From Nitrosopumilus sp. (GTDB lineage: Archaea; Thermoproteota; Nitrososphaeria; Nitrososphaerales; Nitrosopumilaceae): a stretch of DNA of 10,621 bases. The notes under the pieces are model-generated. The model searched no databases and was not told where the DNA came from. It worked only from the letters and a program-made list of their open reading frames with translations. The stretch spans positions 1 to 10,621 of the forward strand of contig CBDBEK010000002.1 of the NCBI GenBank assembly GCA_965204345.1. Direction: 5' to 3'. A program made the position numbers and the translations under genes. Positions 1 through 10,621 of the stretch are shown in pieces. Position 1 is the first letter of the stretch. Each line of letters starts with the position of its first letter.

Positions 1-204
1 TCAAAAAATCGTTTTGACGTCCAAGCAGATCATGGTTTTAGAAAGCGATACAATACTGTCTTAAAACTGGACAATTCAGTAAACTATAACATTGCAGAAA
101 AGCTAATGGGTCACAAAAATGGTCTTGATCATGTATATCTAACCCCTACCCTAGAAGATCTCTTTAGGGAATTCAAAAAAGTCATGTATAAAATAGAGAT
201 CTAA
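1..204 (+). CDS. Tyrosine recombinase/integrase, C-terminal part (gene starts left of the window)
   Basis: Manual translation of frame 1: SKNRFDVQADHGFRKRYNTVLKLDNSVNYNIAEKLMGHKNGLDHVYLTPTLEDLFREFKKVMYKIEI*. It contains the box II catalytic signature H-x-x-R (HGFR), then LMGH, then a Tyr 8 residues later (DHVY). Stop TAA at 202-204. Confidence 0.9.
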   Translation, partial: SKNRFDVQADHGFRKRYNTVLKLDNSVNYNIAEKLMGHKNGLDHVYLTPTLEDLFREFKKVMYKIEI

Positions 205-419: not shown

Positions 420-1775
420 ATGTTGATCTTTGAGAAAGAGAATCTTCCAGAGGGTTGGAAATATATTGATTTTAAAAAAATTGTTAAAAAAATTCCAATA
501 ACTGGGAAAAAAATAAAGAAAAAAGAATATCAAAATATTGGAAAAATTCCTGTTATTGATCAAGGTAAATCATTTGTAGGTGGATACACAAATGATGAAA
601 ATAACATAGTGAATTGTAGGTTGCCAGTAATTATTTTTGGAGATCATACCAAGAATATTAAATTCGTTAACTATAGATTTGTTGCAGGAGCTGACGGGAT
701 TAAAGTTTTAAAAATAAATTCTGTACTAAATTCTAAATTAATTTACTATTTTATACAATCTATAATTTTACCGGATAAGGGTTACCACAGGCATTATCAA
801 TATCTAGAAAAATCAATAATTCCTATTCCACCTTTCAACGAACAAAAACGCATCGTTACAAAAATCGAATCAATCTTCTCACAGATTGATGCGGCACAAA
901 ACAAGCTGGAGGCACTTGCATCTCAAATAAAGTCGTCTTCTGGCAGCCTGGAGATGCTAAAAAGCAGCGTGCTCAAGCAGGCCTTTGAGGGCAAGCTTGT
1001 TTCACAGGATCCAGCTGATGAGCCAGCAGAGATGCTTTTGAGGAGATTGCATAAGAATTCTAAGAAAGAGTTGATTTTTGAGAAAGAGAATCTTCCAAAA
1101 GGTTGGATTAGAACAGAAATAAATAATATGGCTACAATAGTACTTGGCCAATCTCCTCCTTCATCAACATATAATCGTGAACAAGATGGTCTTCCATTTT
1201 TTCAAGGTAAAACTGATTTTGGAGATCGTTATCCAACCGTAAGAGTATGGTGTAATGCACCAAAAAAACTTGCAGAAAAAGATGATATTTTAATTTCTGT
1301 TCGCGCGCCGGTTGGCTCTACAAACATAAGTACTGAAAAATGTTGTATTGGTAGAGGATTATCTATAATAAGATCTTTTGAGGGAATTAGTTCTCTGTAT
1401 GTCTTTTATCAACTGCGTCATCTTGAGAATGATATTGCAACAAAAGGAAGAGGAGTCACATTCAAAGCTATTACTGGAAAACAACTCAGATCTATCATGC
1501 TTAATTTACCGCCACTCAAAGAACAAAAACGCATCGTAGCTAAAATTGAATCAATCTTTGACAGGATTGATGTAATAGAAAAGTATGTAGATTCAACATT
1601 AGAACGACTTGATATTCTAAAAAATAGCGTTCTCAAGCAGGCCTTTGAGGGCAAGCTTGTTACACAGGATCCAACTGATGAACCAGCAGAAATGTTATTG
1701 CAAAGGATAAAACAAGAAAAAGAACAATTAATACAAAATCAAAAACCATCAAAGAGGAAGAAAATTGTCAAATGA
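420..1775 (+). CDS. hsdS: Type I R-M specificity subunit HsdS, complete copy (TRD-A, central helix, TRD-C, C-terminal helix)
   Basis: Two TRDs, each starting with LPxGW and ending in PP..EQKRIVxKIESIF. Duplicated conserved helix LKxSVLKQAFEGKLVxQDPxDEPAEMLL. Overlaps the hsdM start. Confidence 0.96.
   Translation: MLIFEKENLPEGWKYIDFKKIVKKIPITGKKIKKKEYQNIGKIPVIDQGKSFVGGYTNDENNIVNCRLPVIIFGDHTKNIKFVNYRFVAGADGIKVLKINSVLNSKLIYYFIQSIILPDKGYHRHYQYLEKSIIPIPPFNEQKRIVTKIESIFSQIDAAQNKLEALASQIKSSSGSLEMLKSSVLKQAFEGKLVSQDPADEPAEMLLRRLHKNSKKELIFEKENLPKGWIRTEINNMATIVLGQSPPSSTYNREQDGLPFFQGKTDFGDRYPTVRVWCNAPKKLAEKDDILISVRAPVGSTNISTEKCCIGRGLSIIRSFEGISSLYVFYQLRHLENDIATKGRGVTFKAITGKQLRSIMLNLPPLKEQKRIVAKIESIFDRIDVIEKYVDSTLERLDILKNSVLKQAFEGKLVTQDPTDEPAEMLLQRIKQEKEQLIQNQKPSKRKKIVK
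429..459 (+). repeat. Short TRD 5'-flank repeat (FEKENLPxGW); other copies at 1077-1115 (+), 7422-7460 (-) and 8118-8156 (-)
   Basis: TTTGAGAAAGAGAATCTTCCAGAGGGTTGGA matches the reverse complement of 8126-8156 at 28/31. Its first 21 nt are identical to 1077-1097. Confidence 0.88.
837..1575 (+). repeat. 739-bp inverted repeat, left arm (pairs with 6962-7700)
   Basis: Starts AACGAACAAAAACGCATCGT and ends GACAGGATTGATGTAA. Paired coordinates sum to 8537 at both ends, so there is no net indel. The encoded peptides are identical and I found no mismatch in the DNA segments compared by eye. Confidence 0.96.
1521..1558 (+). repeat. Short TRD 3'-flank repeat (EQKRIVxKIESI); other copies at 840-877 (+), 6979-7016 (-) and 7660-7697 (-)
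   Basis: The 17-mer GAACAAAAACGCATCGT is exact at 840 and 1521; 34/38 identity over the full repeat. Confidence 0.85.
1617..1694 (+). repeat. Conserved-helix repeat; direct copy of 957-1034 and inverted copy of 7503-7580
   Basis: 71/78 identity with 957-1034, including the exact 30-mer CTCAAGCAGGCCTTTGAGGGCAAGCTTGTT (972-1001 and 1632-1661). Confidence 0.88.
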
Positions 1776-3249
1776 AGCACCAGTTATAGTACAAAAACTC
1801 TGGAACTTTTGCAACATCCTAAGAGATGATGGGGTATCATACGGTGATTATGTACAACAGCTGACAAATCTATTATTCCTAAAAATGGCCGATGAGCAAA
1901 CAAAGCCACCATACAAGAAAAAATCAATCATACCAAAAAAATATGACTGGAGTACGTTGATTTCAAAAACTGGGAATGACCTAGAGAATCAATACAGACA
2001 TATCCTACAGAATTTGGCTAAAGAATCAGGACTTTTAGGTGTAATATTTAGAAAATCTCAAAATAAGATTCAAGATCCTGCCAAGCTAGAAAGATTGATC
2101 AAAATGATAGACGGAGATTCAAAAATCAAGGATAAAATTCTTTGGAGTGGGATGGATATTGATGTCAAAGGCGAAATCTATGAAGGGTTGCTAGAAAAAA
2201 ATGCAGAAGATGTCAAGAGTGGTGCAGGCCAATACTTTACACCGCGTGCATTGATTGATGCGATTGTAGATGTCATACAACCAAAACTAAAAGAAACGAT
2301 TGGAGATCCAGCATGTGGTACTGGAGGTTTTTTTCTGTCAACTCACAAATATCTGATAAATAATTTTAATTTAGATCCTGATGAAAAAAAATTCCTCAAA
2401 AATAAGACTTTCAAGGGTTGGGATATTGTAACTGAAGTGGTAAGGTTATGTGCGATGAGTATGTATCTTCATGGAATTGGATCTACAGAAAGTCAGATTG
2501 TTGGAGGAGACTCACTTATCTCAGATCCTGGTGATAGATTTGACATAGTGATGACCAATCCACCATTTGGTAAAAAATCAAGTACTATAATTTTCTCTGA
2601 GCAAGGAAAAACGGAACGTAAAACATTGTCCTATGAACGAGATGATTTTTGGACAAGTACATCAAACAAACAATTAAACTTTCTCCAACATGTCAAAACG
2701 ATTCTTAAAGTAAATGGGAGGTGTGCTATTGTAGTTCCTGATAACGTTCTGTTTGAAGGAGGAGCAGGGGAAACAGTAAGAAAAAAACTATTGGAACAGT
2801 TTGATTGCCACACCTTGTTAAGACTACCGACAGGGATATTTTATGCTGGAGGCGTTAAAGCAAATGTATTATTCTTTGACAAAAAACCAGCAAGAACAGA
2901 TGGTAATGCATGGACCAAAAAGCTATGGATTTATGATTTTAGAACAAACCAACACTTTACATTAAAAGAGAACTCGATTAGTCGAGAACATCTGGATAAT
3001 TTTGTAAAATGTTATAACCCAAAAAATATTCTAAAAAGAAAAGAAACTGATCAGTTTCATGCATATTCATATGAGGATTTGATAAACAGAGATAAAACAT
3101 CACTGGATATTTTCTGGTTAAAAGATGAATCTTTGGAAAATACTGAAAATTTACCTACTCCTGAAGATATTGCAAGAGAAATTAAAAATGATCTAGAACA
3201 TGCACTTGATTCAATCAGTGAACTAGTTGGCAGTCTTGAAAAAGTATAA
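1765..3249 (+). CDS. hsdM: Type I R-M N6-adenine methyltransferase subunit HsdM
   Basis: LWNFCNILRDDG N-terminus, GQYFTPR, SAM-binding motif I DPACGTGGF and catalytic motif IV NPPF. TTG start with SD-like GAGGA at 1754-1758; overlaps the end of hsdS1 by 11 nt. Confidence 0.97.
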   Translation: MSNEAPVIVQKLWNFCNILRDDGVSYGDYVQQLTNLLFLKMADEQTKPPYKKKSIIPKKYDWSTLISKTGNDLENQYRHILQNLAKESGLLGVIFRKSQNKIQDPAKLERLIKMIDGDSKIKDKILWSGMDIDVKGEIYEGLLEKNAEDVKSGAGQYFTPRALIDAIVDVIQPKLKETIGDPACGTGGFFLSTHKYLINNFNLDPDEKKFLKNKTFKGWDIVTEVVRLCAMSMYLHGIGSTESQIVGGDSLISDPGDRFDIVMTNPPFGKKSSTIIFSEQGKTERKTLSYERDDFWTSTSNKQLNFLQHVKTILKVNGRCAIVVPDNVLFEGGAGETVRKKLLEQFDCHTLLRLPTGIFYAGGVKANVLFFDKKPARTDGNAWTKKLWIYDFRTNQHFTLKENSISREHLDNFVKCYNPKNILKRKETDQFHAYSYEDLINRDKTSLDIFWLKDESLENTENLPTPEDIAREIKNDLEHALDSISELVGSLEKV

Positions 3250-3534
3250 TAAACAGATTGTCATTATCCCAAATAATTAATTTTGTATAATGCAAAAGAA
3301 ATTTGTGTATATTTTATATTTGAATTCATCATGAAAGCCCAATTTGATAGATACCGAAGCATGCTGTATCAGTTATAATTAATGAATATTCGTGGTTTAA
3401 TTAGAGATAAAATCGAAAGAATCAAGAAACAGCATTTTGTACAGTTGGGTAATTGAGAATATTTCTCATTTTTGATAAAAAATCTCGATTTATATATCTA
3501 GTATTTTGAATCATCATATAAAATTTTGATTGGA

Positions 3535-6279
3535 TTATTGGTTAAGTAAAACACTATGCAATTCTTCTAAAATTGTTTCATAACCATCTCCAAATACCTC
3601 ATTGAACTTTACTATTCCTCCCCTTTGATTAAATGGAACATCATTTAGCATGTCTATGTCAATTGATACAGAGCTGGCAATTGCATTTTTGATCATAACC
3701 AGCCATTCTTTTTGTTCTGGAGTAAATTGCCGTCCTGATGATTCTTGAGATTCAAGCCATTTTTCAAACTTTGTATCAAGTATATCTGAGAAAGGCATTA
3801 ACACATCTTCGTTACCTGATGAATATCTTACGATGGATATCAAATCTGTAAGCATTTTTGCTGGATTTTTCTTTACCTTTGATTTGTCTAGTCTTTGATA
3901 AGCATTCCAAAGCTTTTCATGTGTGAGATTGTATGGTGGTTTTTCTATGATACGCGCAAGATTCTTTATGTCTTCATATGTAATTTCTCTCAGTCTGTAT
4001 GGTTTTGAATAGATTATATCAAGAGCAGTAATCTTGTCTCTGTTTTTGTCTATAAATTCAGTCCAATTCTGAACTGTTGTTTGATCTATCTCTTTTACCT
4101 TGTCAACAAATCCAGCTTCGAATAATTCATCGATTGATTTACCATCTATAATTTGCTCATGTTTACTTTTTATATCAAGAATAGTTTTGCGTAATGTTGT
4201 AGAATCAAAGACTTTGCATGCATTATCAATCATTTGTTTTTCAACTGTTTTGATTTGTTCATTAGTTGGTGTATCTGTATCAAATTGTTTTTTTGTATTT
4301 TCTATTTTCTTATCAGAATCGATTCCATCAAGTAGTGTTCTTTCAATATCTATCAAAGTTTTTCCATTATTTACACTGGCAATCTCATCTTTATCTTCCT
4401 GACTTATCTTTCTATTTAACCTAGATAAACGATAAATCAAACTCTCGATATCATCTGTTTGTGCATTTTTGTCTATTGCCTTGTTCAATAATTCTTTAAA
4501 GGATATTTTTGGTTTTTTAGATAAAGAATGGGTATCACTCATAGTATGTTCACAAACACCAACTGCATCAACTATGACAAAATGTGTTTTGGCTTTGGCA
4601 TCTGGTGTTACTGCAATCAGGTCATCAGATGCAATAGTTCTAGTACCACGTCCTTTCATTTGATCAAAGTAATTTTTTGTTTTAACATCTCGCATGAAAA
4701 TAATGCATTCTAATGCCTTGATATCTGTCCCAGTTGCAATCATATCTACAGTAACTGCAATTCGTGGCATTGATGAATTTCTGAAACTGGAAATTAATTC
4801 TTCTGGTTTTTCCATCGTACGATATGTGATTTTTTTACAAAAATTATTCCCCACTCCAAATTCTTCTCGAACAATTTCAGTAATATCTTCTGCATGGGAA
4901 TCATCTTTAGCAAAAATCAAAGTTTTGGGAACATCAACTCTATTTGGAAAAATCTCATTCAGTTTTTCTTTGAAGGTTCTTATCACTTTTCGAATTTGAT
5001 CTTTGACAACAACACTTCTGTCCAGATCATTTTTCGTGTATATTACATCATCATCTAACTGTTTTTGTTCTAGATTGCGTGTAAATCTGTCACGTTTTTC
5101 AACATATTGACCTGCAGGCAATAAACCACCTTGCTCGCTAGTTTTGGTCTTGATTCTATATACATGATATCCAACATTTACTCCATCTACTACAGCACGT
5201 TCATGCGTGTATCGCATTACTTGATTATTATTGAAAAATCCTACTGTATCATTTGATGGAGTTGCAGTTAATCCTACCAAAAAAGAATCAAAATAATCCA
5301 ATACTTGTTTCCATTTATTGTATATGGAGCGATGACATTCGTCAATTACAATAAAGTCAAATTCTCCAATCGGAATGTTTTCATTATATTTTACATTTAT
5401 AGGAGTTTCATCTGTGTTTCTCTCAAATATTGAAAATTCATCATTTTCTTCCTCATAGACTTCCTCTCCCTTTAGAACAGAAAACATTCTCTGTATGGTG
5501 GAGATCACAACTTTGGGAACGGGATCAATTGTATTTGATTGTAATAGTTGGACATTATACAAATCAGTAAATTTCCTTCCATCATCAGGGGTTTGATATT
5601 GTTGAAATTCGCGTAATGCCTGTCTTCCTAAATTTGCTCTGTCTACTAGAAATAAAATTTTTTTGGCTTTAGCAAATTTTATCAGTCGATAAATGGATGT
5701 TACAGCTGTAAAGGTTTTGCCCGAACCTGTTGCCATTTGAATTAATGCACGTGGTTTATTCTGCGAAAAAGAATCCTCTAAATTTGTAATTGCTTCTGTT
5801 TGACACTCCCAAAGTTTTTCATAGTCTAGTTTTGGAATATCTTTTAATCTTGAACGCAATGTTTTCTCCCCTCTAAGCCATTCTTGTAATAATTCTGGGC
5901 GATGAAATGAAAATACATCTCTAGAACGGAAATTGGGATCACGACGATCTGCAAATTTAGTCTCAATTCCTGTCGTCTCATATGAAAATGGTGGTCTAAT
6001 TGGAATATTTGTAAATTTTTCACATAATCCATCAAGATATTTGTCTGATTGTTCTGCAACTCCACTAAGTGTATGTCCCTTTCTTTTGGCCTCAACTACA
6101 CCCACAGGTTTGGCATTAATGAACAGAGCATAGTCTGCACTATCTTTGCTTAGTGGGTATTCTCTAACTGCTACACCCAACCCTGCATTTAGATTTCTAT
6201 TATCATAATCTTGTACTATCCATCCTGAATCAATTAACATTTTGTCAATCTCTTGACGAGATTCATCTTCTGGTCTCAT
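3535..6279 (-). CDS. hsdR: Type I R-M restriction/translocase subunit HsdR (EcoEI/EcoAI-like architecture)
   Basis: Nuclease motif ADYALF...VVEAK, Walker A MATGSGKT, FLVDR, DECH box, LTATP and motif VI QMKGRGTR. 914 aa, uninterrupted. Confidence 0.96.
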   Translation of the reverse strand: MRPEDESRQEIDKMLIDSGWIVQDYDNRNLNAGLGVAVREYPLSKDSADYALFINAKPVGVVEAKRKGHTLSGVAEQSDKYLDGLCEKFTNIPIRPPFSYETTGIETKFADRRDPNFRSRDVFSFHRPELLQEWLRGEKTLRSRLKDIPKLDYEKLWECQTEAITNLEDSFSQNKPRALIQMATGSGKTFTAVTSIYRLIKFAKAKKILFLVDRANLGRQALREFQQYQTPDDGRKFTDLYNVQLLQSNTIDPVPKVVISTIQRMFSVLKGEEVYEEENDEFSIFERNTDETPINVKYNENIPIGEFDFIVIDECHRSIYNKWKQVLDYFDSFLVGLTATPSNDTVGFFNNNQVMRYTHERAVVDGVNVGYHVYRIKTKTSEQGGLLPAGQYVEKRDRFTRNLEQKQLDDDVIYTKNDLDRSVVVKDQIRKVIRTFKEKLNEIFPNRVDVPKTLIFAKDDSHAEDITEIVREEFGVGNNFCKKITYRTMEKPEELISSFRNSSMPRIAVTVDMIATGTDIKALECIIFMRDVKTKNYFDQMKGRGTRTIASDDLIAVTPDAKAKTHFVIVDAVGVCEHTMSDTHSLSKKPKISFKELLNKAIDKNAQTDDIESLIYRLSRLNRKISQEDKDEIASVNNGKTLIDIERTLLDGIDSDKKIENTKKQFDTDTPTNEQIKTVEKQMIDNACKVFDSTTLRKTILDIKSKHEQIIDGKSIDELFEAGFVDKVKEIDQTTVQNWTEFIDKNRDKITALDIIYSKPYRLREITYEDIKNLARIIEKPPYNLTHEKLWNAYQRLDKSKVKKNPAKMLTDLISIVRYSSGNEDVLMPFSDILDTKFEKWLESQESSGRQFTPEQKEWLVMIKNAIASSVSIDIDMLNDVPFNQRGGIVKFNEVFGDGYETILEELHSVLLNQ

Positions 6280-6299
6280 AGAATAATTTTGATATTACC

Positions 6300-6307
6300 A
6301 TATTTAA
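6300..6307 (-). promoter_or_regulatory. Putative TATA box for hsdR
   Basis: TTAAATAT on the minus strand, 21-28 nt upstream of ATG 6279. Confidence 0.4.
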
Positions 6308-6336
6308 CATGAATTGGTATAATCAAGATCTTCTTA

Positions 6337-6876
6337 CTAAATACATCTTGCCTTGATCTCAAAGAATGCAGAGTTTACTTCTGCAATTGTTTTTGCCCCT
6401 GCAATGACTCCTTTTCCTGATGCAAATAAAAGCGCTACACAACTATCTTGAATTCTATATATCAAACCCGGAAATTGTTCCGGTTCATACATGCTTTTTG
6501 GTAATATTCTTACAAGTTTTTCTATTGGCAAATTTTGTTTTAAATCAAATCGTGCTACAATATTTTGCACTTTGGGAGTAATTTTAATGATCTTCGCAAG
6601 ATTATGATTATCCAGTATTTTTATTGCTTTGTTTAATTCTTTTTTAGACTGTGCAGGATTCTTTGTTCCAACTGAAATAAGTTTTCCATTTCCAAATACA
6701 GTAACTCGTCCAACCATCAAATCATCTTTTACATACCCGCATCGATATAAGGCAATATTTGAGCTGAGAAATTGATATTTGTTAAAAGAAGCAATATCTA
6801 TTTTTTGTTTGAGATCTGCTGTAGTTACAGTGTTTTGAATTTTAATTCCTGCTACAATCTTTGATTCTTTTTGCAT
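6337..6876 (-). CDS. tbp: TATA-box-binding protein, divergent accessory paralog (start ATG 6876 or GTG 6888)
   Basis: Two-repeat TBP fold. Repeat 1: IQNTVTTADL...VFGNGKLISVGTK. Repeat 2: VQNIVARFDL...YEPEQFPGLIYR...LFASGKGVIAGAK. Confidence 0.93.
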   Translation of the reverse strand: MQKESKIVAGIKIQNTVTTADLKQKIDIASFNKYQFLSSNIALYRCGYVKDDLMVGRVTVFGNGKLISVGTKNPAQSKKELNKAIKILDNHNLAKIIKITPKVQNIVARFDLKQNLPIEKLVRILPKSMYEPEQFPGLIYRIQDSCVALLFASGKGVIAGAKTIAEVNSAFFEIKARCI

Positions 6877-6887
6877 TAAAATTAACA

Positions 6888-8176
6888 CTACCGTACTGCA
6901 TTAAAAACGAATGTCTTATTCACAGATGTGATCTTTTGTTTGATTAAATATAATATCTGTTTTACATCAATCCTGTCAAAGATTGATTCAATTTTAGCTA
7001 CGATGCGTTTTTGTTCTTTGAGTGGCGGTAAATTAAGCATGATAGATCTGAGTTGTTTTCCAGTAATAGCTTTGAATGTGACTCCTCTTCCTTTTGTTGC
7101 AATATCATTCTCAAGATGACGCAGTTGATAAAAGACATACAGAGAACTAATTCCCTCAAAAGATCTTATTATAGATAATCCTCTACCAATACAACATTTT
7201 TCAGTACTTATGTTTGTAGAGCCAACCGGCGCGCGAACAGAAATTAAAATATCATCTTTTTCTGCAAGTTTTTTTGGTGCATTACACCATACTCTTACGG
7301 TTGGATAACGATCTCCAAAATCAGTTTTACCTTGAAAAAATGGAAGACCATCTTGTTCACGATTATATGTTGATGAAGGAGGAGATTGGCCAAGTACTAT
7401 TGTAGCCATATTATTTATTTCTGTTCTAATCCAACCTTTTGGAAGATTCTCTTTCTCAAAAATCAACTCTTTCTTAGAATTCTTATGCAATCTCCTCAAA
7501 AGCATCTCTGCTGGCTCATCAGCTGGATCCTGTGAAACAAGCTTGCCCTCAAAGGCCTGCTTGAGCACGCTGCTTTTTAGCATCTCCAGGCTGCCAGAAG
7601 ACGACTTTATTTGAGATGCAAGTGCCTCCAGCTTGTTTTGTGCCGCATCAATCTGTGAGAAGATTGATTCGATTTTTGTAACGATGCGTTTTTGTTCGTT
7701 CAGAGGAGGAAGTGGACAAACAATGGATTTTAGTTTTGTAGCGTTAACATTAAAAACTGCAATACCAACTTTTTTCTCATATATTGATTGCCAATAAAAA
7801 GGACTCTGAAGAAAATAATAGAAAAATTTTGGATTAACTTTAGGCCTAAATCTAATCAAATATGACGCAAAAACCGTATTTGAAACTTCGTCTAATAAAT
7901 AACTAAATCCAATTGAACCAGCACGAGAGATGACGATATCATTTTTTTCAAGAAGATATTTTTCGATCATATTGGGAGTTTGTTTGCAAAAAGGAACAGT
8001 CTTCCAATTAATTTTTCCTGATGTAATATCAGTTGTTCTTAGAAATTTAATTTTTCCAGTTTTACTTGCACTAGTTGTATAACCATATTGAGGTTTGTAA
8101 CATATATTTTCTACCTTTGTTCTAATCCAACCTTTTGGAAGATTTTCTTTCTCAAATTCTATCTCAGAGTCACCAT
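6888..8176 (-). CDS. hsdS: Second HsdS (TRD-B, central helix, TRD-C) with truncated C-terminal helix and no in-frame canonical start at its true 5' end; probable alternative or silent cassette
   Basis: The frame of ORF 6888-7970 stays open to 8195 and encodes ...DSEIEFEKENLPKGWIRTKVENICYKPQYGYTTSASKTGKIKFLRTTDITSGKINWKTVPFCKQTPN-MIEKYLL..., so Met 7970 is internal to the TRD. After ...FDRIDV it ends in an unrelated 24-aa tail. The nearest ATG (8176) is out of frame; an ATA at 8162 is in frame. Confidence 0.9.
6962..7700 (-). repeat. 739-bp inverted repeat, right arm (pairs with 837-1575)
   Basis: Reverse complement of 837-1575. Identity stops at 6961 and 7701. Confidence 0.96.
8118..8156 (-). 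repeat. Short TRD 5'-flank repeat at the start of hsdS2
   Basis: The reverse complement TTTGAGAAAGAAAATCTTCCAAAAGGTTGGATTAGAACA is 38/39 identical to 1077-1115. Confidence 0.9.
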
Positions 8177-8196
8177 TATTTCCACCAACAAAACTC

Positions 8197-8204
8197 TAAT
8201 AAAA
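8197..8204 (-). promoter_or_regulatory. Putative TATA box upstream of hsdS2
   Basis: TTTTATTA on the minus strand, 21-28 nt upstream of ATG 8176. SD-like GGTGG lies just before that ATG. Confidence 0.35.
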
Positions 8205-8206
8205 GA

Positions 8207-8476
8207 TTAGACAAGTGCATATTTTATCCATCTTTGAACTTCAAACATTTTTGATTTAATTCAGAGATGGTTTTCTTCTCGATAATATACCCTTCTCCGA
8301 TGCAAAGATAATCCAATCAATCTATCCTAAATTCTAAAGATCAGACATAGAAATTGTTCAGGCTTATACGTAGATTTTGGTATTTTTCACGCTAATCTTT
8401 GAATATTTATTCTCTTTTCTAAATCATACCGTGTAATGATATTTCTTATTTTAGGAGATATTCTTACATATTGAAA
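8207..8476 (-). pseudogene. tbp: Decayed TBP gene (second repeat only)
   Basis: Minus-strand translation FQYVRISPKIRNIITRYDLEKRINIQRLA*KIPKSTYKPEQFLCLIFRI*DRLIG / IFASEKGIL / KTISELNQ / FEVQRWIKYALV* is collinear with KITPKVQNIVARFDLKQNLPIEKLVRILPKSMYEPEQFPGLIYRIQDSCVALLFASGKGVIAGAKTIAEVNSAFFEIKARCI of the intact TBP. Stops at 8389-8387 and 8329-8327, plus frameshifts. Confidence 0.85.
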
Positions 8477-8569
8477 TCTCTAATTTATGGATAATTTTTC
8501 TAAATACCATGTAATAATATTTTCATTCTGAAAAATCTACTTTTTGATATTTATTAGAATGTACTTGTC

Positions 8570-9041
8570 AAGTCCTATCAATCTTAATCCACTTGATAAC
8601 TGTGCTATAATTTTGAGATGGTTTTTCCTGTTGCTCACATTCAATGTCTTGCGGCTCCTCTTCTGTGAGTGAGTGTTTTTCCTCTTTGATCATGTATGGA
8701 AAATCCAGAGAATTTTCCACAACCTCTTTTGTGATCTTTATGTTGTGATATATGAGGTATTTTTTTAAGACATGAAAAGACTGTCAGATATCGTTTGGAA
8801 ATATCTTCTTACGATTCCAGTTGATCCACTCTTGGAGCAACTTGTAAATCACTCTAGTTCTATTTTTTAATATTCTACTATTGATCTCACCCCTATCTTG
8901 TCATATTTTTCCTTACAGAGTTTATCAAAGTTCTTTATTATTGATTAAGAGTTTTTTTCTGCGTATTTACTGCCTCTGTCTGCAGCTTTTTCTGAAATGT
9001 TTGATGATCTTTTGAATTGTTAGGAAAGGTAGATAGTTCAT
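8570..9041 (-). pseudogene. Decayed tyrosine integrase, N-terminal half ending just after box I
   Basis: Minus-strand fragments: IIKNFDKLCKEKYD / IYKLLQEWINWNRKKIFPNDI*QSFHVLKKYLIYHNIKITKEVVENSLDFPYMIKEEKHSLTEEEPQD / LNVSNRKNHLKIIAQLSSGLRL. An LT.EE motif followed by SSGLR (Arg at 8584-8582) is the start of a tyrosine recombinase catalytic domain. Stop at 8786-8784 and several frameshifts. The 5' limit (ATG 9041) is approximate. Confidence 0.72.
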
Positions 9042-9110
9042 TATTTTACTAATAACCCCCAAAAAAATACTTATGCAAAATTATGATATTTAAAATTAAA
9101 TCAGCAGATT

Positions 9111-10268
9111 TTAAAAAAAATCAGAAATAACTTTCTGTCTGGTCAGTTCGACAACATTTCCATGCATGAGCCACTCAGATTTACTGATGCTCGTTTTATT
9201 TGAGGCCAAAGTTAGTGCGTGCTCAAAATCATCAGCAAAGAGATGCTTTTTATTCATTGCCTCCCTGACGCCCTCTCTCACTTGCCACACACCGACAGGG
9301 ATGGCATACTCGGGACGGATTTCTCGTAAAATTACAGCTCCTGCTTGAACTTTATTTTTGACAAGGTATTCTAAAACACCTAGTTTTGCAGCAAAATATG
9401 CACCGGCAATAGCGGGAGGATGATCAATTCCGCGGGCATCCTCACAGTCAGAGCCAAAACCCAAGACACCGTTAGAATACCAGGCCTCAATCATTTCATA
9501 GACCCATCGGTGTGGAAACAATACCACGCAAAAGATATTCCCCAAATGCTCATACGAAAAGACCCTGTGCGAGTCAATCAGGCCGTAGTTTAACACGTCC
9601 TCGGTAAGCGATTTGCAAATAATATCATCAGTTGCAGTAATACTCCATTTAGTAGGAACAAGCTTCCTTTTGCATCCGAGCATTCCAATACTGAAGCATT
9701 TTTGGATTTTTGAAATTTCTACTCCGGAATTATATAAATTTAAAACAGCATCTTGAGCTTTTAGATCCTTGTCATAGTATGTTTTTTCTATAGATTTTAC
9801 AGGGGCATTTGCAGAGAATTTTGCAGATTTTATTTGGCCAATAGGACCAAAAGGGGCACTCTCACCGTCAAGTGAAACACTAGGGGCAGCAGAACTCTGA
9901 AAAACTAGATCAGAATCAATAGGCCTTGAAGACATTGTAACTTCTTGGAGATTTTCAACGTATCGCCCGTCAGTCTGTCCTATTGGAATTTTTTGTGTGC
10001 CCCTGACCAAATTGAGCCTAAAATTTACAATGTCTTCTAAAGACTTTCCTGTCCATCGCTCAGGGCTATCTAACAGACTAGTATCCCCATGAATTGGGGG
10101 CACCATAGGACCAACGAGGACTTTGGGGTAGTTGTATGATCCAACAAATACAGACGGAGGACTAGCACCGCTCACAAAATCAGAAGAGAACAGATTGCCA
10201 TGCCTTAAAAGAGATTCGTGCCATCTAGACAGGATGGCTCTACGAATATTTTCAGAGTCTGAAATCAT
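9111..10268 (-). CDS. nreA: Archaeal Nre-family DNA repair protein (PCNA-interacting)
   Basis: SPPSVFVGSYNYPKV.VGP, LVPTKWSITATDD, GAYFAAKL, REIRPEYAIPVGVWQVREGVR and a C-terminal PIP box QKVISDFF. Confidence 0.92.
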   Translation of the reverse strand: MISDSENIRRAILSRWHESLLRHGNLFSSDFVSGASPPSVFVGSYNYPKVLVGPMVPPIHGDTSLLDSPERWTGKSLEDIVNFRLNLVRGTQKIPIGQTDGRYVENLQEVTMSSRPIDSDLVFQSSAAPSVSLDGESAPFGPIGQIKSAKFSANAPVKSIEKTYYDKDLKAQDAVLNLYNSGVEISKIQKCFSIGMLGCKRKLVPTKWSITATDDIICKSLTEDVLNYGLIDSHRVFSYEHLGNIFCVVLFPHRWVYEMIEAWYSNGVLGFGSDCEDARGIDHPPAIAGAYFAAKLGVLEYLVKNKVQAGAVILREIRPEYAIPVGVWQVREGVREAMNKKHLFADDFEHALTLASNKTSISKSEWLMHGNVVELTRQKVISDFF

Positions 10269-10291
10269 GGTTTTTGTACCTAAAAAATGCC

Positions 10292-10345
10292 TATTAACTT
10301 GCCTAATGACAAAAATTGATCGCCAGCAAACAGGGCGTTTAAGTA
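10292..10345. promoter_or_regulatory. Divergent promoter region (TATA boxes for nre and the btuF-like gene)
   Basis: TTAATA on - at 10297-10292 (24-29 nt before ATG 10268) and TTTAAGTA on + at 10338-10345 (22-29 nt before ATG 10367). Confidence 0.5.
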
Positions 10346-10366
10346 AAATATCATCTAGTCAAAACC

Positions 10367-10621
10367 ATGACAGTAAGTCGAATCGTCTCATTTGTGCCTA
10401 GCGGAACCGAACTAGTATACGAATTAGGGAGACAGGACAAGCTTAAGGGAGTAACACACGAATGCAGATATCCGCAGGATGCATGCTCAAAACCAAGAGT
10501 CATAGATACGGTGATTAATTCCAAGGAACTAACCAGCAAGGAAATAGATGCAGCAACTTGCAAGCTGCAAAGCGAGGGCAAAGACATTTTTGTTTTAAAT
10601 GAAGAAAATTTGAAAAATGCA
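10367..10621 (+). CDS. BtuF-like cobalamin/iron-siderophore binding protein (helical-backbone family), N-terminal part; runs off the window
   Basis: Manual translation MTVSRIVSFVPSGTELVYELGRQDKLKGVTHECRYPQDACSKPRV... matches the RIVSLxPSxTEILxALG...VGVTHECDYP family signature. Open for 85 codons to the window end. Confidence 0.88.
   Translation, partial: MTVSRIVSFVPSGTELVYELGRQDKLKGVTHECRYPQDACSKPRVIDTVINSKELTSKEIDAATCKLQSEGKDIFVLNEENLKNA

What the first reader, a model, noticed from the sequence alone, without database searches (positions are those of the whole stretch)
837..7700. Candidate invertible, phase-variable Type I R-M system in an archaeon, where the R and M genes themselves flip
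Seen: two convergent hsdS genes share a 739-bp inverted repeat (central helix plus TRD-C) but differ in TRD1 (A or B), which lies outside the repeats. The only complete C-terminal helix, coupled to hsdM, lies inside them. A crossover would invert 1576-6961 (hsdS 3' end, hsdM, hsdR, tbp) in frame. TRD-B would gain the full C-terminus and hsdM, and TRD-A would gain the truncated tail. Known: hsdS inversion switches methylation specificity in bacteria (pneumococcal SpnIII/ivr, Mycoplasma pulmonis hsd, Bacteroides fragilis BfrI). Inference: this is an equivalent specificity or ON/OFF switch in a thaumarchaeon. I do not know of a characterised archaeal case, but I could not search for one.
Basis: partly seen in the sequence, partly recalled or inferred. 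Interest (0 to 1): 0.9.

Follow-up and report, generated by a model that had tools for sequence, protein, structure and literature searches.

The report
Possibly invertible archaeal restriction-modification island
Two facing copies of a DNA-recognition gene in an archaeon share a perfect 739-base inverted repeat that could flip the restriction-modification genes lying between them, but one copy is broken, so a flip would switch the system on or off, and no flip has been seen.

Summary
Window 837-1575 and 6962-7700 are a perfect 739-nt inverted repeat. It lies inside two convergent hsdS genes that flank hsdM, hsdR and a TBP paralog. An in-silico flip stays in frame.

1. hsdS-B has no in-frame start. 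A 2-nt insertion after codon 3, relative to the allele on contig C1, ends the ATG frame after five codons. A flip would therefore toggle hsdS-A between full length and tail-truncated. That is ON/OFF, not two specificities.
2. The window is a whole 10.6-kb contig. It is a minor-haplotype allele of an ~11-kb integrase-bearing island inserted between nre and a DUF432 gene.
3. The tyrosine recombinase gene ends 215 nt upstream of hsdS-A. In 34 loci of this recombinase clade, hsdS lies within 3 kb in 19, inverted hsdS pairs occur in 12, and long high-identity repeats occur in 5.

The available reads were short-read contigs that break at the repeat borders, so orientation could not be read.

Verdict: a plausible archaeal hsdS inverton candidate, unproven. 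My searches found no characterised archaeal case.

The parts
1..204 (+). 3' end of a tyrosine recombinase (integrase) gene, last 67 codons; the contig starts inside the gene
   Evidence: 100% protein identity to residues 242-308 of the 308-aa integrase of the C1 allele. Pfam PF00589 is weak and NCBIfam XerA gives 53.8 bits, below its cut-off. R143, H252, R255, H279 and Y287 are invariant in 28 orthologs; the window part holds H252 to Y287.
420..1775 (+). hsdS-A: complete specificity gene of 451 aa (TRD-A, central region, TRD-C, full C-terminal helix)
   Evidence: Residues 224-413 match the PDB S subunits 5ybb_D/3okg_A up to the end of their chains.
837..1575 (.). left arm of the perfect 739-nt inverted repeat (box 1, central conserved region, TRD-C, box 2)
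1576..6961 (.). 5,386-nt segment between the arms that a crossover would invert (hsdS-A C-terminal helix, hsdM, hsdR, tbp, truncated tail)
   Evidence: One short-read contig spans 1546-6523 in runs X5 and X7.
1765..3249 (+). hsdM (494 aa); its start overlaps the end of hsdS-A by 11 nt
   Evidence: PF02384 and PF12161; PADLOC MTase_I 618 bits; 82-88% identical to HsdM of relatives over its full length
3535..6279 (-). hsdR (914 aa), intact
   Evidence: PF04851 and PF08463; NF008521 401.6 bits, below its cut-off; 77-81% identical to relatives over 1-913
6337..6888 (-). divergent TATA-binding-protein paralog. The likely start is the ATG at 6876, 11 nt after the hsdS-B stop.
   Evidence: PF00352; scores 77 and 33 bits for its two repeats, against 94-100 bits for the three canonical TBP genes; 95% identical to the C1 allele; start read from the sequence
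6888..6961 (-). truncated 24-residue tail that replaces the C-terminal helix in hsdS-B
   Evidence: The same tail plus tbp, 92.5% identical, follows the integrase-proximal hsdS in the C1 allele.
6962..7700 (.). right arm of the inverted repeat
6888..8159 (-). hsdS-B body: an open 423-codon frame (TRD-B, central region, TRD-C, truncated tail) with no in-frame start codon before 7970
8159..8176 (-). frameshifted start of hsdS-B: an ATG at 8176-8174, then a stop at 8161-8159 in that frame. The cause is a 2-nt insertion relative to the C1 allele.
   Evidence: Alignment with the C1 allele and the sequence. The insertion is present in the window-type contig 7671-8198 of X5, X6 and X7 and absent from the C1-like variant in X1.
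8318..8455 (-). remnant of a TBP gene, with stops, in the hsdS-B upstream region
9085..9110 (.). approximate island border just downstream of nre. A 10-nt direct repeat is shared with the other border in the C1 allele.
   Evidence: Empty sites in G067, G017 and G014, and the border sequences. A 10-nt match alone is weak.

Best explanation
The window is one allele of an ~11-kb integrase-bearing Type I restriction-modification island in an archaeon. It carries one working system (HsdS-A, HsdM, HsdR). It also carries a second, translationally dead hsdS copy facing the first. That copy shares a perfect 739-nt repeat with hsdS-A, most likely created by recent gene conversion between the two copies across their conserved boxes. 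Recombination between the arms would flip the 5.4-kb hsdM-hsdR-tbp block. The recombination could be homologous, or it could be catalysed by the conserved tyrosine recombinase next door. In this allele the flip would give hsdS-A the truncated tail and hand the full C-terminus and hsdM to the frameshifted hsdS-B. That would be an ON/OFF switch of methylation and restriction, not a change of specificity. Shown: the repeat, the gene content, the in-frame outcome, the frameshift, the island status, and the recurrence of the design in relatives. Inferred: that flipping actually happens, who catalyses it, and that the truncated HsdS is inactive.
For: The repeat is perfect over 739 nt and is bounded exactly by the conserved hsdS boxes. 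The flip is in frame. The C-terminal helix lost in the tail version aligns to the terminal helix of solved S subunits. The recombinase gene ends 215 nt upstream of hsdS-A, and its catalytic residues R, H-x-x-R, H and Y are invariant in 28 orthologs. I examined all 33 places with this recombinase at E<=1e-90 in 151 genomes of the genus, plus the window. hsdS lies within 3 kb in 19 of 34, hsdS is on both strands in 12 of 34, and repeats of >=180 nt at >=90% link opposite hsdS copies in 5 (window, G155, G154, G172, G165#3). hsdR and hsdM lie between the arms in G155 and G154 too. The recombinase lies between the arms in G014, G172 and G165#3. More distant integrases had no hsdS beside them, 0 of 13. 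G155 repeats the pattern of one intact and one frameshifted copy sharing an ~860-nt repeat at 98%. The box2-tail-tbp module is in opposite orientation relative to the shared flanks in the two alleles of this assembly.
Against: No data show two orientations. The runs were short-read contigs that break at the arm borders, and no alternative-junction contig exists in the assembly. hsdS-B is doubly defective, with a frameshift and a truncated tail, as a decaying relic would be. The recombinase sits at the edge of an insertion, since nre and the DUF432 gene are adjacent in G067, G017 and G014. It is multi-copy and often degraded in relatives. 15 of 34 loci have no hsdS within 3 kb. All of this fits an ordinary island integrase. 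G014, G172 and G165#3 all show the same orientation. The two alleles differ in much more than an inversion: their HsdM and HsdR are only 30% and 26% identical.
Confidence: 0.5

Rival explanations
1. Static relic. The repeat is a by-product of gene conversion and mosaic recombination inside a mobile defence island. hsdS-B is a decaying pseudogene and the recombinase is only the island's integrase. Any inversion is rare, unprogrammed and without function.
For: The island is an insertion with the integrase at its edge. Thaumarchaeal integrated elements are reported to carry Type I R-M genes and XerC/D-type integrases (PMC6563490, passages and section 13 read). hsdS-B has a frameshift and a truncated tail. 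The islands are mosaics whose homology breaks at the boxes. The assembly shows only one orientation.
Against: 739 nt without a single mismatch beside a disabling mutation argues for very recent or continuing exchange. The 423-codon hsdS-B frame is still open in 34% G+C DNA. Only this recombinase clade is linked to hsdS, and in three species it sits between the two hsdS genes inside an R-M locus, which is an odd place for an island integrase.
Confidence: 0.38
2. One reading: a two-specificity switch in which either TRD-A or TRD-B is joined to the full C-terminus and hsdM.
For: The geometry and frame are right. TRD-A and TRD-B are distinct, at 28% identity. The hsdS-B body is an intact open frame.
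Against: There is no in-frame start codon. The ATG frame stops after five codons because of a 2-nt insertion, which is seen in the assembly and in the short-read contigs of X5, X6 and X7. Those runs may come from the sample that was assembled. The first in-frame ATG, at 7970, would delete about 63 residues of TRD-B.
Confidence: 0.07
3. Assembly artefact: one arm, or the joining of the two halves, is a mis-assembly of strain variants.
For: The window is a short minor-haplotype contig in a mixed population. Short-read contigs cannot confirm which outer end is joined to which inner end.
Against: Contigs from short reads end 28-30 nt inside the arms at three of the four arm borders, next to TRD-A (378-864), next to the hsdS-A C-terminal helix (1546-6523) and next to TRD-B (7671-8198). 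The fourth border, next to the tail, was not among the pieces listed. The arm-internal contig has about 1.5-2.6 times the depth of the unique pieces in three runs. Related genomes carry the same kind of repeat.
Confidence: 0.03

Closest known systems
Streptococcus pneumoniae SpnIII / ivr (cod) locus with the PsrA/CreX tyrosine recombinase (PMC7672463 passages read; PMC4948785 abstract from a search listing)
   Same: A Type I locus with several hsdS genes in opposite orientation, inverted repeats inside hsdS coding sequence, in-frame recombinants, and a tyrosine recombinase gene in the locus.
   Different: There the invertible segments hold only hsdS parts and the recombinase gene, while hsdM and hsdR stay fixed, and each variant is a working HsdS with its own motif. 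Here the fixed parts are the two TRD1 ends, the flipped part carries hsdM, hsdR and a tbp gene, and one partner is untranslatable. The host is an archaeon. The recombinase is only weakly XerA-like, and I could not compare it with the bacterial clades.
Clade-2 invertase loci of Huang et al. 2020, where inversions mostly yield truncated HsdS and ON/OFF switching (PMC7672463, passage read)
   Same: The predicted outcome is the same: inversion gives a truncated HsdS and so an ON/OFF methylome switch rather than new specificities.
   Different: Those are bacterial loci. Membership of that recombinase clade was not tested here, and the R and M genes are not described there as lying inside the inverted segment.
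Mycoplasma pulmonis hsd loci with the HvsR recombinase (PMC7672463, passages read)
   Same: hsdS genes in inverted orientation recombine at conserved sites within the coding sequence.
   Different: HvsR is encoded away from its target loci. Here the recombinase gene ends 215 nt upstream of hsdS-A.
Thaumarchaeal cryptic integrated elements carrying Type I R-M genes (Krupovic et al. 2019, PMC6563490; passages and section 13 read)
   Same: An integrase-bearing insertion of about 11 kb with HsdS/M/R cargo in an archaeon of this kind. S-subunit genes outnumber M and R genes in their arCOG table (11, 9, 6).
   Different: That paper's main text has no occurrence of 'inversion', 'TBP' or 'TATA'. The inverted hsdS pairs, the long repeats and the island TBP paralog are not described there.

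Membership tests
hsdS 'epigenetic inverton' (criteria as given in Huang et al. 2020, PMC7672463) | At least two hsdS genes in opposite orientation in one Type I locus | tested here: met
   hsdS-A 420-1775(+) and the hsdS-B body 6888-8159(-)
hsdS 'epigenetic inverton' (criteria as given in Huang et al. 2020, PMC7672463) | Inverted repeats inside the hsdS coding sequences | tested here: met
   Perfect 739-nt arms at 837-1575 and 6962-7700
hsdS 'epigenetic inverton' (criteria as given in Huang et al. 2020, PMC7672463) | A recombinase homolog within 2 kb of an R-M gene | tested here: met
   The tyrosine recombinase gene ends at 204, 215 nt before hsdS-A. It is full length in the C1 allele, and its catalytic residues are invariant in 28 orthologs.
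hsdS 'epigenetic inverton' (criteria as given in Huang et al. 2020, PMC7672463) | Inversion keeps the reading frames of both hsdS genes | tested here: met
   In-silico flip: 451 to 409 aa and 423 to 465 aa, with no new stops
hsdS 'epigenetic inverton' (criteria as given in Huang et al. 2020, PMC7672463) | Each resulting hsdS allele encodes a working specificity subunit with its own motif | tested here: not met
   hsdS-B has no in-frame start because of the 2-nt insertion. The flipped hsdS-A lacks the C-terminal helix. Methylation motifs could not be measured.
hsdS 'epigenetic inverton' (criteria as given in Huang et al. 2020, PMC7672463) | Both orientations detected in a clonal population by PCR or long reads | not testable with these tools
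   All four runs laid were short-read contigs that break at the arm borders.
Type I restriction-modification system | Intact HsdS, HsdM and HsdR genes in one locus | tested here: met
   Pfam, NCBIfam and PADLOC matches, plus full-length alignment to orthologs
Integrated mobile element of Thaumarchaeota (cryptic integrated element, PMC6563490) | An integrase-bearing insertion relative to an empty site in related genomes | tested here: met
   nre is followed within about 70-100 nt by the DUF432 gene in G067, G017 and G014, but by the ~11-kb island in G000 C1. The integrase is at the island's edge.
Integrated mobile element of Thaumarchaeota (cryptic integrated element, PMC6563490) | Direct-repeat attachment sites at both borders | tested here: inconclusive
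   There is only a 10-nt shared word at both borders of the C1 allele. About 0.7 such matches are expected by chance in the regions compared (my estimate from the lengths). No tRNA gene lies in the 18 kb scanned.
Bacterial hsdS invertase clades 1-6 (PMC7672463) | Sequence membership of the recombinase in one of the six clades | not tested
   No reference sequences were available to me. NCBIfam gives only sub-threshold XerA/XerC/XerD matches.

The most novel reading that the evidence does not exclude
This archaeal genus carries a family of true hsdS invertons run by its own clade of tyrosine recombinase. The clade travels on mobile islands together with a private TBP paralog. It flips either hsdS halves or whole hsdM-hsdR blocks at a conserved box in hsdS, whose nucleotide core contains a small palindrome. 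That would be the first phase-variable epigenetic or defence switch shown in Archaea.
Probability: 0.3. Interest if true: 0.8.

Novelty: new variant of a known kind. Interest (0 to 1): 0.5.

Why it matters
Programmed hsdS inversion is well documented in host-associated bacteria. The surveys I read either covered bacteria only or leave Archaea as an open question. PMC9881135 says so explicitly. PMC10028968 had 42 archaeal long-read sets, from Euryarchaeota and Crenarchaeota only. If these loci flip, ammonia-oxidising-type archaea in mixed populations would have a bet-hedging switch for virus defence and genome methylation. That switch would be driven by a new recombinase clade. The candidates are concrete and testable: this window, G155, G154, G172, G165#3 and G014. 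Even if the locus never flips, it shows how Type I specificity genes in these islands are rebuilt by exchange at conserved boxes. It also shows that strains co-existing in one population carry different R-M cargo at the same chromosomal site.

Tried and rejected
Reads. The look-up of sequencing runs gave only runs kept as short-read contigs. Read laying on X1, X5, X6 and X7 could not resolve orientation, because a flip between perfect arms creates no new junction words. The one 'opposite strands' joint (819 to 8124, in X1) is a C1-like variant with a different TRD that merely reaches the conserved box, so it is not an inversion product. The loose ends at 6958 (X1, X6) read as the C-terminal helix of the C1 allele's full hsdS when compared by eye. 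The loose ends at 507 and 8239 (X5) were not followed.

Wider collections. The search for related loci in metagenome contigs and genome contigs found no near-identical locus. The best hit was 59% identical and matched only TRD-C-like domains, mostly bacterial. No flipped copy could be looked for there.

Attachment sites. No direct repeat of 11 nt or more lies at the island borders, and no tRNA gene lies in the 18 kb scanned.

Recombination site. The conserved hsdS box holds an invariant stretch in 36 of 36 boxes found by an amino-acid pattern, with a 6-7-nt inverted match about 8-10 nt downstream. The boxes are related by descent and the motif is short, so I treat this only as an idea.

Orientation comparison. 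G014, G172 and G165#3 share one orientation. Three cases say nothing either way.

Full report
**What is in the window.** The window is the whole of contig C3 (10,621 nt, 33.8% G+C) of a nine-contig assembly whose main contig C1 is 2.04 Mb. ORF listing and Pfam, NCBIfam and PADLOC scans give the following genes.
- The last 67 codons of a tyrosine recombinase, 1-204(+).
- hsdS-A, 420-1775(+), 451 aa.
- hsdM, 1765-3249(+), 494 aa.
- hsdR, 3535-6279(-), 914 aa.
- A TBP paralog, 6337-6888(-).
- A second hsdS body, 6888-8159(-).
- nre, 9111-10268(-).

TBP and Nre are archaeal families. I did not verify the taxon further.

**The repeat.** The repeat finder reports arms 821-1575 and 6962-7716, 755 nt at 99%. 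The alignment and a script show exact identity over 739 nt, 837-1575 against 6962-7700. The next-longest inverted repeat in the window is 93 nt at 87%.

The arms begin at the conserved box after TRD1 and end just after the second copy of that box following TRD2. They therefore hold box 1, the central conserved region, TRD-C and box 2. TRD-A and TRD-B lie outside and are 28% identical.

After the right-hand border, hsdS-A continues with a 70-residue C-terminal region. That region aligns to the terminal helix of solved S subunits 5ybb_D and 3okg_A. hsdS-B continues instead with 24 unrelated residues and a stop, and tbp starts 11 nt later.

Inverting 1576-6961 in silico keeps both frames. hsdS-A goes from 451 to 409 aa with the short tail. 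The hsdS-B body goes from 423 to 465 aa with the full tail and hsdM downstream.

In its frame there is no ATG, GTG or TTG between the upstream stop and the ATG at 7970. Alignment with the homologous gene on C1 shows why. On C1 an ATG is followed in frame by the conserved N-terminus. In the window the same ATG (8176-8174) is followed by a 2-nt insertion and runs into a stop at 8161-8159.

The insertion is present in the window-type short-read contig 7671-8198 of runs X5, X6 and X7, which shows no differing letters. It is absent from a C1-like variant in run X1. X5-X7 may come from the sample that was assembled, so this rules out a long-read indel error only if the assembly was long-read based.

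The rest of the frame, 423 codons, is open in 34% G+C DNA. The lesion is therefore recent, or coding capacity is still maintained.

**The window is an allele of a mobile island.** C3 matches C1:69613-80763 at both ends.
- The nre side is 99.5% identical (8880-10621) and then 93% (8118-8918).
- The recombinase side is 92% identical (1-459).
- hsdM and hsdR have no nucleotide match. The proteins are 30% and 26% identical to those of C1.

In the contigs of runs X5, X6 and X7 the window-specific pieces have depths of about 23-29, 8-20 and 23-38. The C1-type pieces have depths of about 68, 38-42 and 123-127. The shared nre flank has depths of 110, 45 and 152. The two types roughly add up to the flank. 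This fits alleles in co-existing sub-populations, with the window type at roughly a fifth to a quarter, and does not fit two loci in one genome. The tool warns that contig depth is a poor measure, so this is only an indication.

In X1, a different study, window-specific hsdM and hsdR contigs with no differing letters occur at depth 2-6 beside a flank at 220. Other small contigs of the assembly (C2, C5, C6, C7, C8, C9) also match regions of C1, at 85-99.8% identity.

nre is present in 41 of 41 genomes of the genus searched. In G067, G017 and G014 it is followed within about 70-100 nt by a DUF432 gene. In G000 C1 that gene lies about 11 kb away, beyond the R-M genes and the recombinase. So the whole locus is an insertion with the recombinase at its edge.

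Related recombinase and R-M islands sit at other chromosomal places in relatives. Krupovic et al. 2019 describe integrase-bearing integrated elements with Type I R-M cargo in Thaumarchaeota. Their main text mentions neither inversion nor TBP (passages and section 13 read).

**The recombinase.** The 308-aa protein of the C1 allele is 100% identical to the window's 67 residues. It gives only weak Pfam PF00589 and sub-threshold XerA matches. In 28 aligned orthologs R143, H252, R255, H279 and Y287 are invariant. That these are the catalytic residues of tyrosine recombinases is my recall.

**Recurrence in relatives.** A search of 151 genomes of the genus found the recombinase at E<=1e-90 in 25 genomes, at 33 places. 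I examined all 33 places plus the window. Context was +-10 kb where the contig allowed, and only 2-5 kb for seven of them. The counts among the 34 loci are as follows.
- hsdS lies within 3 kb of the recombinase in 19.
- hsdS or fragments of it lie on both strands in 12.
- Repeats of >=180 nt at >=90% join opposite hsdS copies in 5: the window (750 nt, 99.6%), G155 (860 nt, 98.4%), G154 (355 nt, 92%), G172 (189 nt, 99.5%) and G165#3 (622 nt, 91.5%).
- 15 have no hsdS within 3 kb.
- None of 13 more distant integrases (46% identity or less) had hsdS within 1.5 kb.

hsdR and hsdM lie between the arms in G155 and G154 as well. In G014, G172 and G165#3 the order is hsdR, hsdS, then the recombinase on the opposite strand, then the second hsdS, then hsdM. 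The recombinase thus sits between two convergent hsdS genes, which is the classical bacterial layout.

In G155 the repeat covers the 5' region, TRD1 and the central region. One copy carries a 1-nt insertion and the other is intact at 478 aa. There a flip would present either of two TRD2 halves to the one live 5' half.

**Comparative hint of inversion.** The module of box 2, short tail and tbp (6336-7030) is 92.5% identical to C1:78535-79229 on the same strand, while both flanks match on opposite strands. Relative to the flanks, this module is therefore attached to the nre-side hsdS in the window and to the recombinase-side hsdS in C1. That is the arrangement a flip would give. But the alleles also differ by replacement of hsdM and hsdR, so this shows an evolutionary rearrangement and not rapid switching.

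**What could not be shown.** All runs available were short-read contigs. They stop 28-30 nt inside each arm, so by the tool's 31-letter rule they do not bridge. A flip between identical arms creates no new junction words, so neither the assembled orientation nor a mixture can be read from them. The arm-internal contig (1068-1575, equal to 6962-7469) has about 1.5-2.6 times the depth of the unique pieces in X5, X6 and X7, as expected for two copies. No near-identical locus exists in the metagenome or genome contig collections I could scan.

**Mechanism, as far as supported.** A perfect 739-nt repeat next to a disabling mutation points to recent or continuing exchange between the copies. Such arms are a good substrate for homologous recombination, and the neighbouring recombinase is a candidate catalyst.

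In this allele the flip would leave no translatable full-length HsdS. Because Type I restriction needs HsdS, both methylation and restriction would go off together, which is a safe OFF state. This last step rests on established Type I biology and on inference. Huang et al. 2020 describe bacterial loci where inversion mostly gives truncated HsdS and ON/OFF switching.

The main rival is that this is a static relic in a mosaic mobile island whose integrase only moves the island. I put the invertible ON/OFF reading at 0.5, the relic at 0.38, the two-specificity switch at 0.07 and an artefact at 0.03.

**Novelty.** Four searches of the paper library found no characterised archaeal hsdS inversion. 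I also read passages of several papers.
- PMC7672463 reports 16 bacterial phyla and notes that archaeal species have multi-hsdS loci.
- PMC9881135 covers bacteria only and names archaea as future work.
- PMC7394358 has no occurrence of 'archaea' in its main text.
- PMC10028968 had 42 archaeal long-read sets and says Atack's analysis hints at archaeal cases.
- PMC11033074 is a review of archaeal R-M with no occurrence of 'inversion' or 'phase vari'.
- For PMC13076061, 12 of 64 passages were shown.

Supplements were closed and may list archaeal loci. I rate this a new variant of a known kind: an archaeal host, an own recombinase clade, R and M genes inside the segment, and a TBP paralog in the island.

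Noticed in passing
window 6337-6888 and 8318-8455; L200, L208, L209, L210, L211, L214, L034, L046: A divergent TBP paralog travels with this recombinase. A TBP gene or remnant lies within the examined context in 10 of 34 recombinase loci, and directly beside the recombinase in G156, G164#2, G170#1, G170#2 and G015:C50. The genome has only three canonical TBP genes plus a few divergent ones. The main text of PMC6563490 does not mention TBP. Its role is unknown. A controller of island transcription is only a guess.
   Followed up: partly
whole window; G000 contigs C2, C5, C6, C7, C8, C9: The window is a minor-haplotype contig. Most other small contigs of the assembly also match regions of C1, at 85-99.8% identity. 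For example C6 matches C1 at 99.7-99.8% on both flanks around a replaced middle. The sequenced population therefore holds several strains that differ at islands.
   Followed up: partly
L202 (G155) 1203-2061 and 7359-8217: This is a second case of hsdR and hsdM lying between long hsdS repeat arms (about 860 nt at 98%). One hsdS copy is frameshifted by a 1-nt insertion and the other is intact, and the same recombinase clade lies 1.4 kb away.
   Followed up: partly
L032 (G014), L212 (G172), L213 (G165#3): Three species share the order hsdR, hsdS, recombinase on the opposite strand, hsdS, hsdM. The recombinase sits between convergent hsdS genes, with repeats of 119-622 nt. These may be cleaner candidates for testing inversion than the window.
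   Followed up: partly
window 840-890, 1521-1571, 6966-7016, 7647-7697 and 32 boxes in other loci: The hsdS box holds a nucleotide stretch that is invariant in 36 of 36 boxes, while neighbouring synonymous sites vary. A 6-7-nt inverted match lies about 8-10 nt downstream. This could be a recombinase core site or just descent. It was not tested statistically.
   Followed up: partly
L009 6501-7190 (C1 allele): A 229-aa ORF downstream of the full-length hsdS of the C1 allele has no match in Pfam, NCBIfam or PADLOC.
   Followed up: no
window 8124-9138 as laid in run X1: In the sponge-metagenome run X1 the shared nre flank has depth 220. The C1-like variant has 31.5 and the window-type genes have 2-6. 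Further alleles of this island probably dominate there. Loose ends at 507 and 8239 in X5 hint at yet other junctions.
   Followed up: no
window 1089-1658 (TRD-C, residues 224-413 of HsdS-A): TRD-C is strongly similar to the second TRD of the solved bacterial S subunits 5ybb_D and 3okg_A (193.7 bits). It is also 45-59% identical to TRDs in many bacterial metagenome contigs. This is a widely shared recognition domain whose half-site might be inferred from characterised relatives.
   Followed up: no
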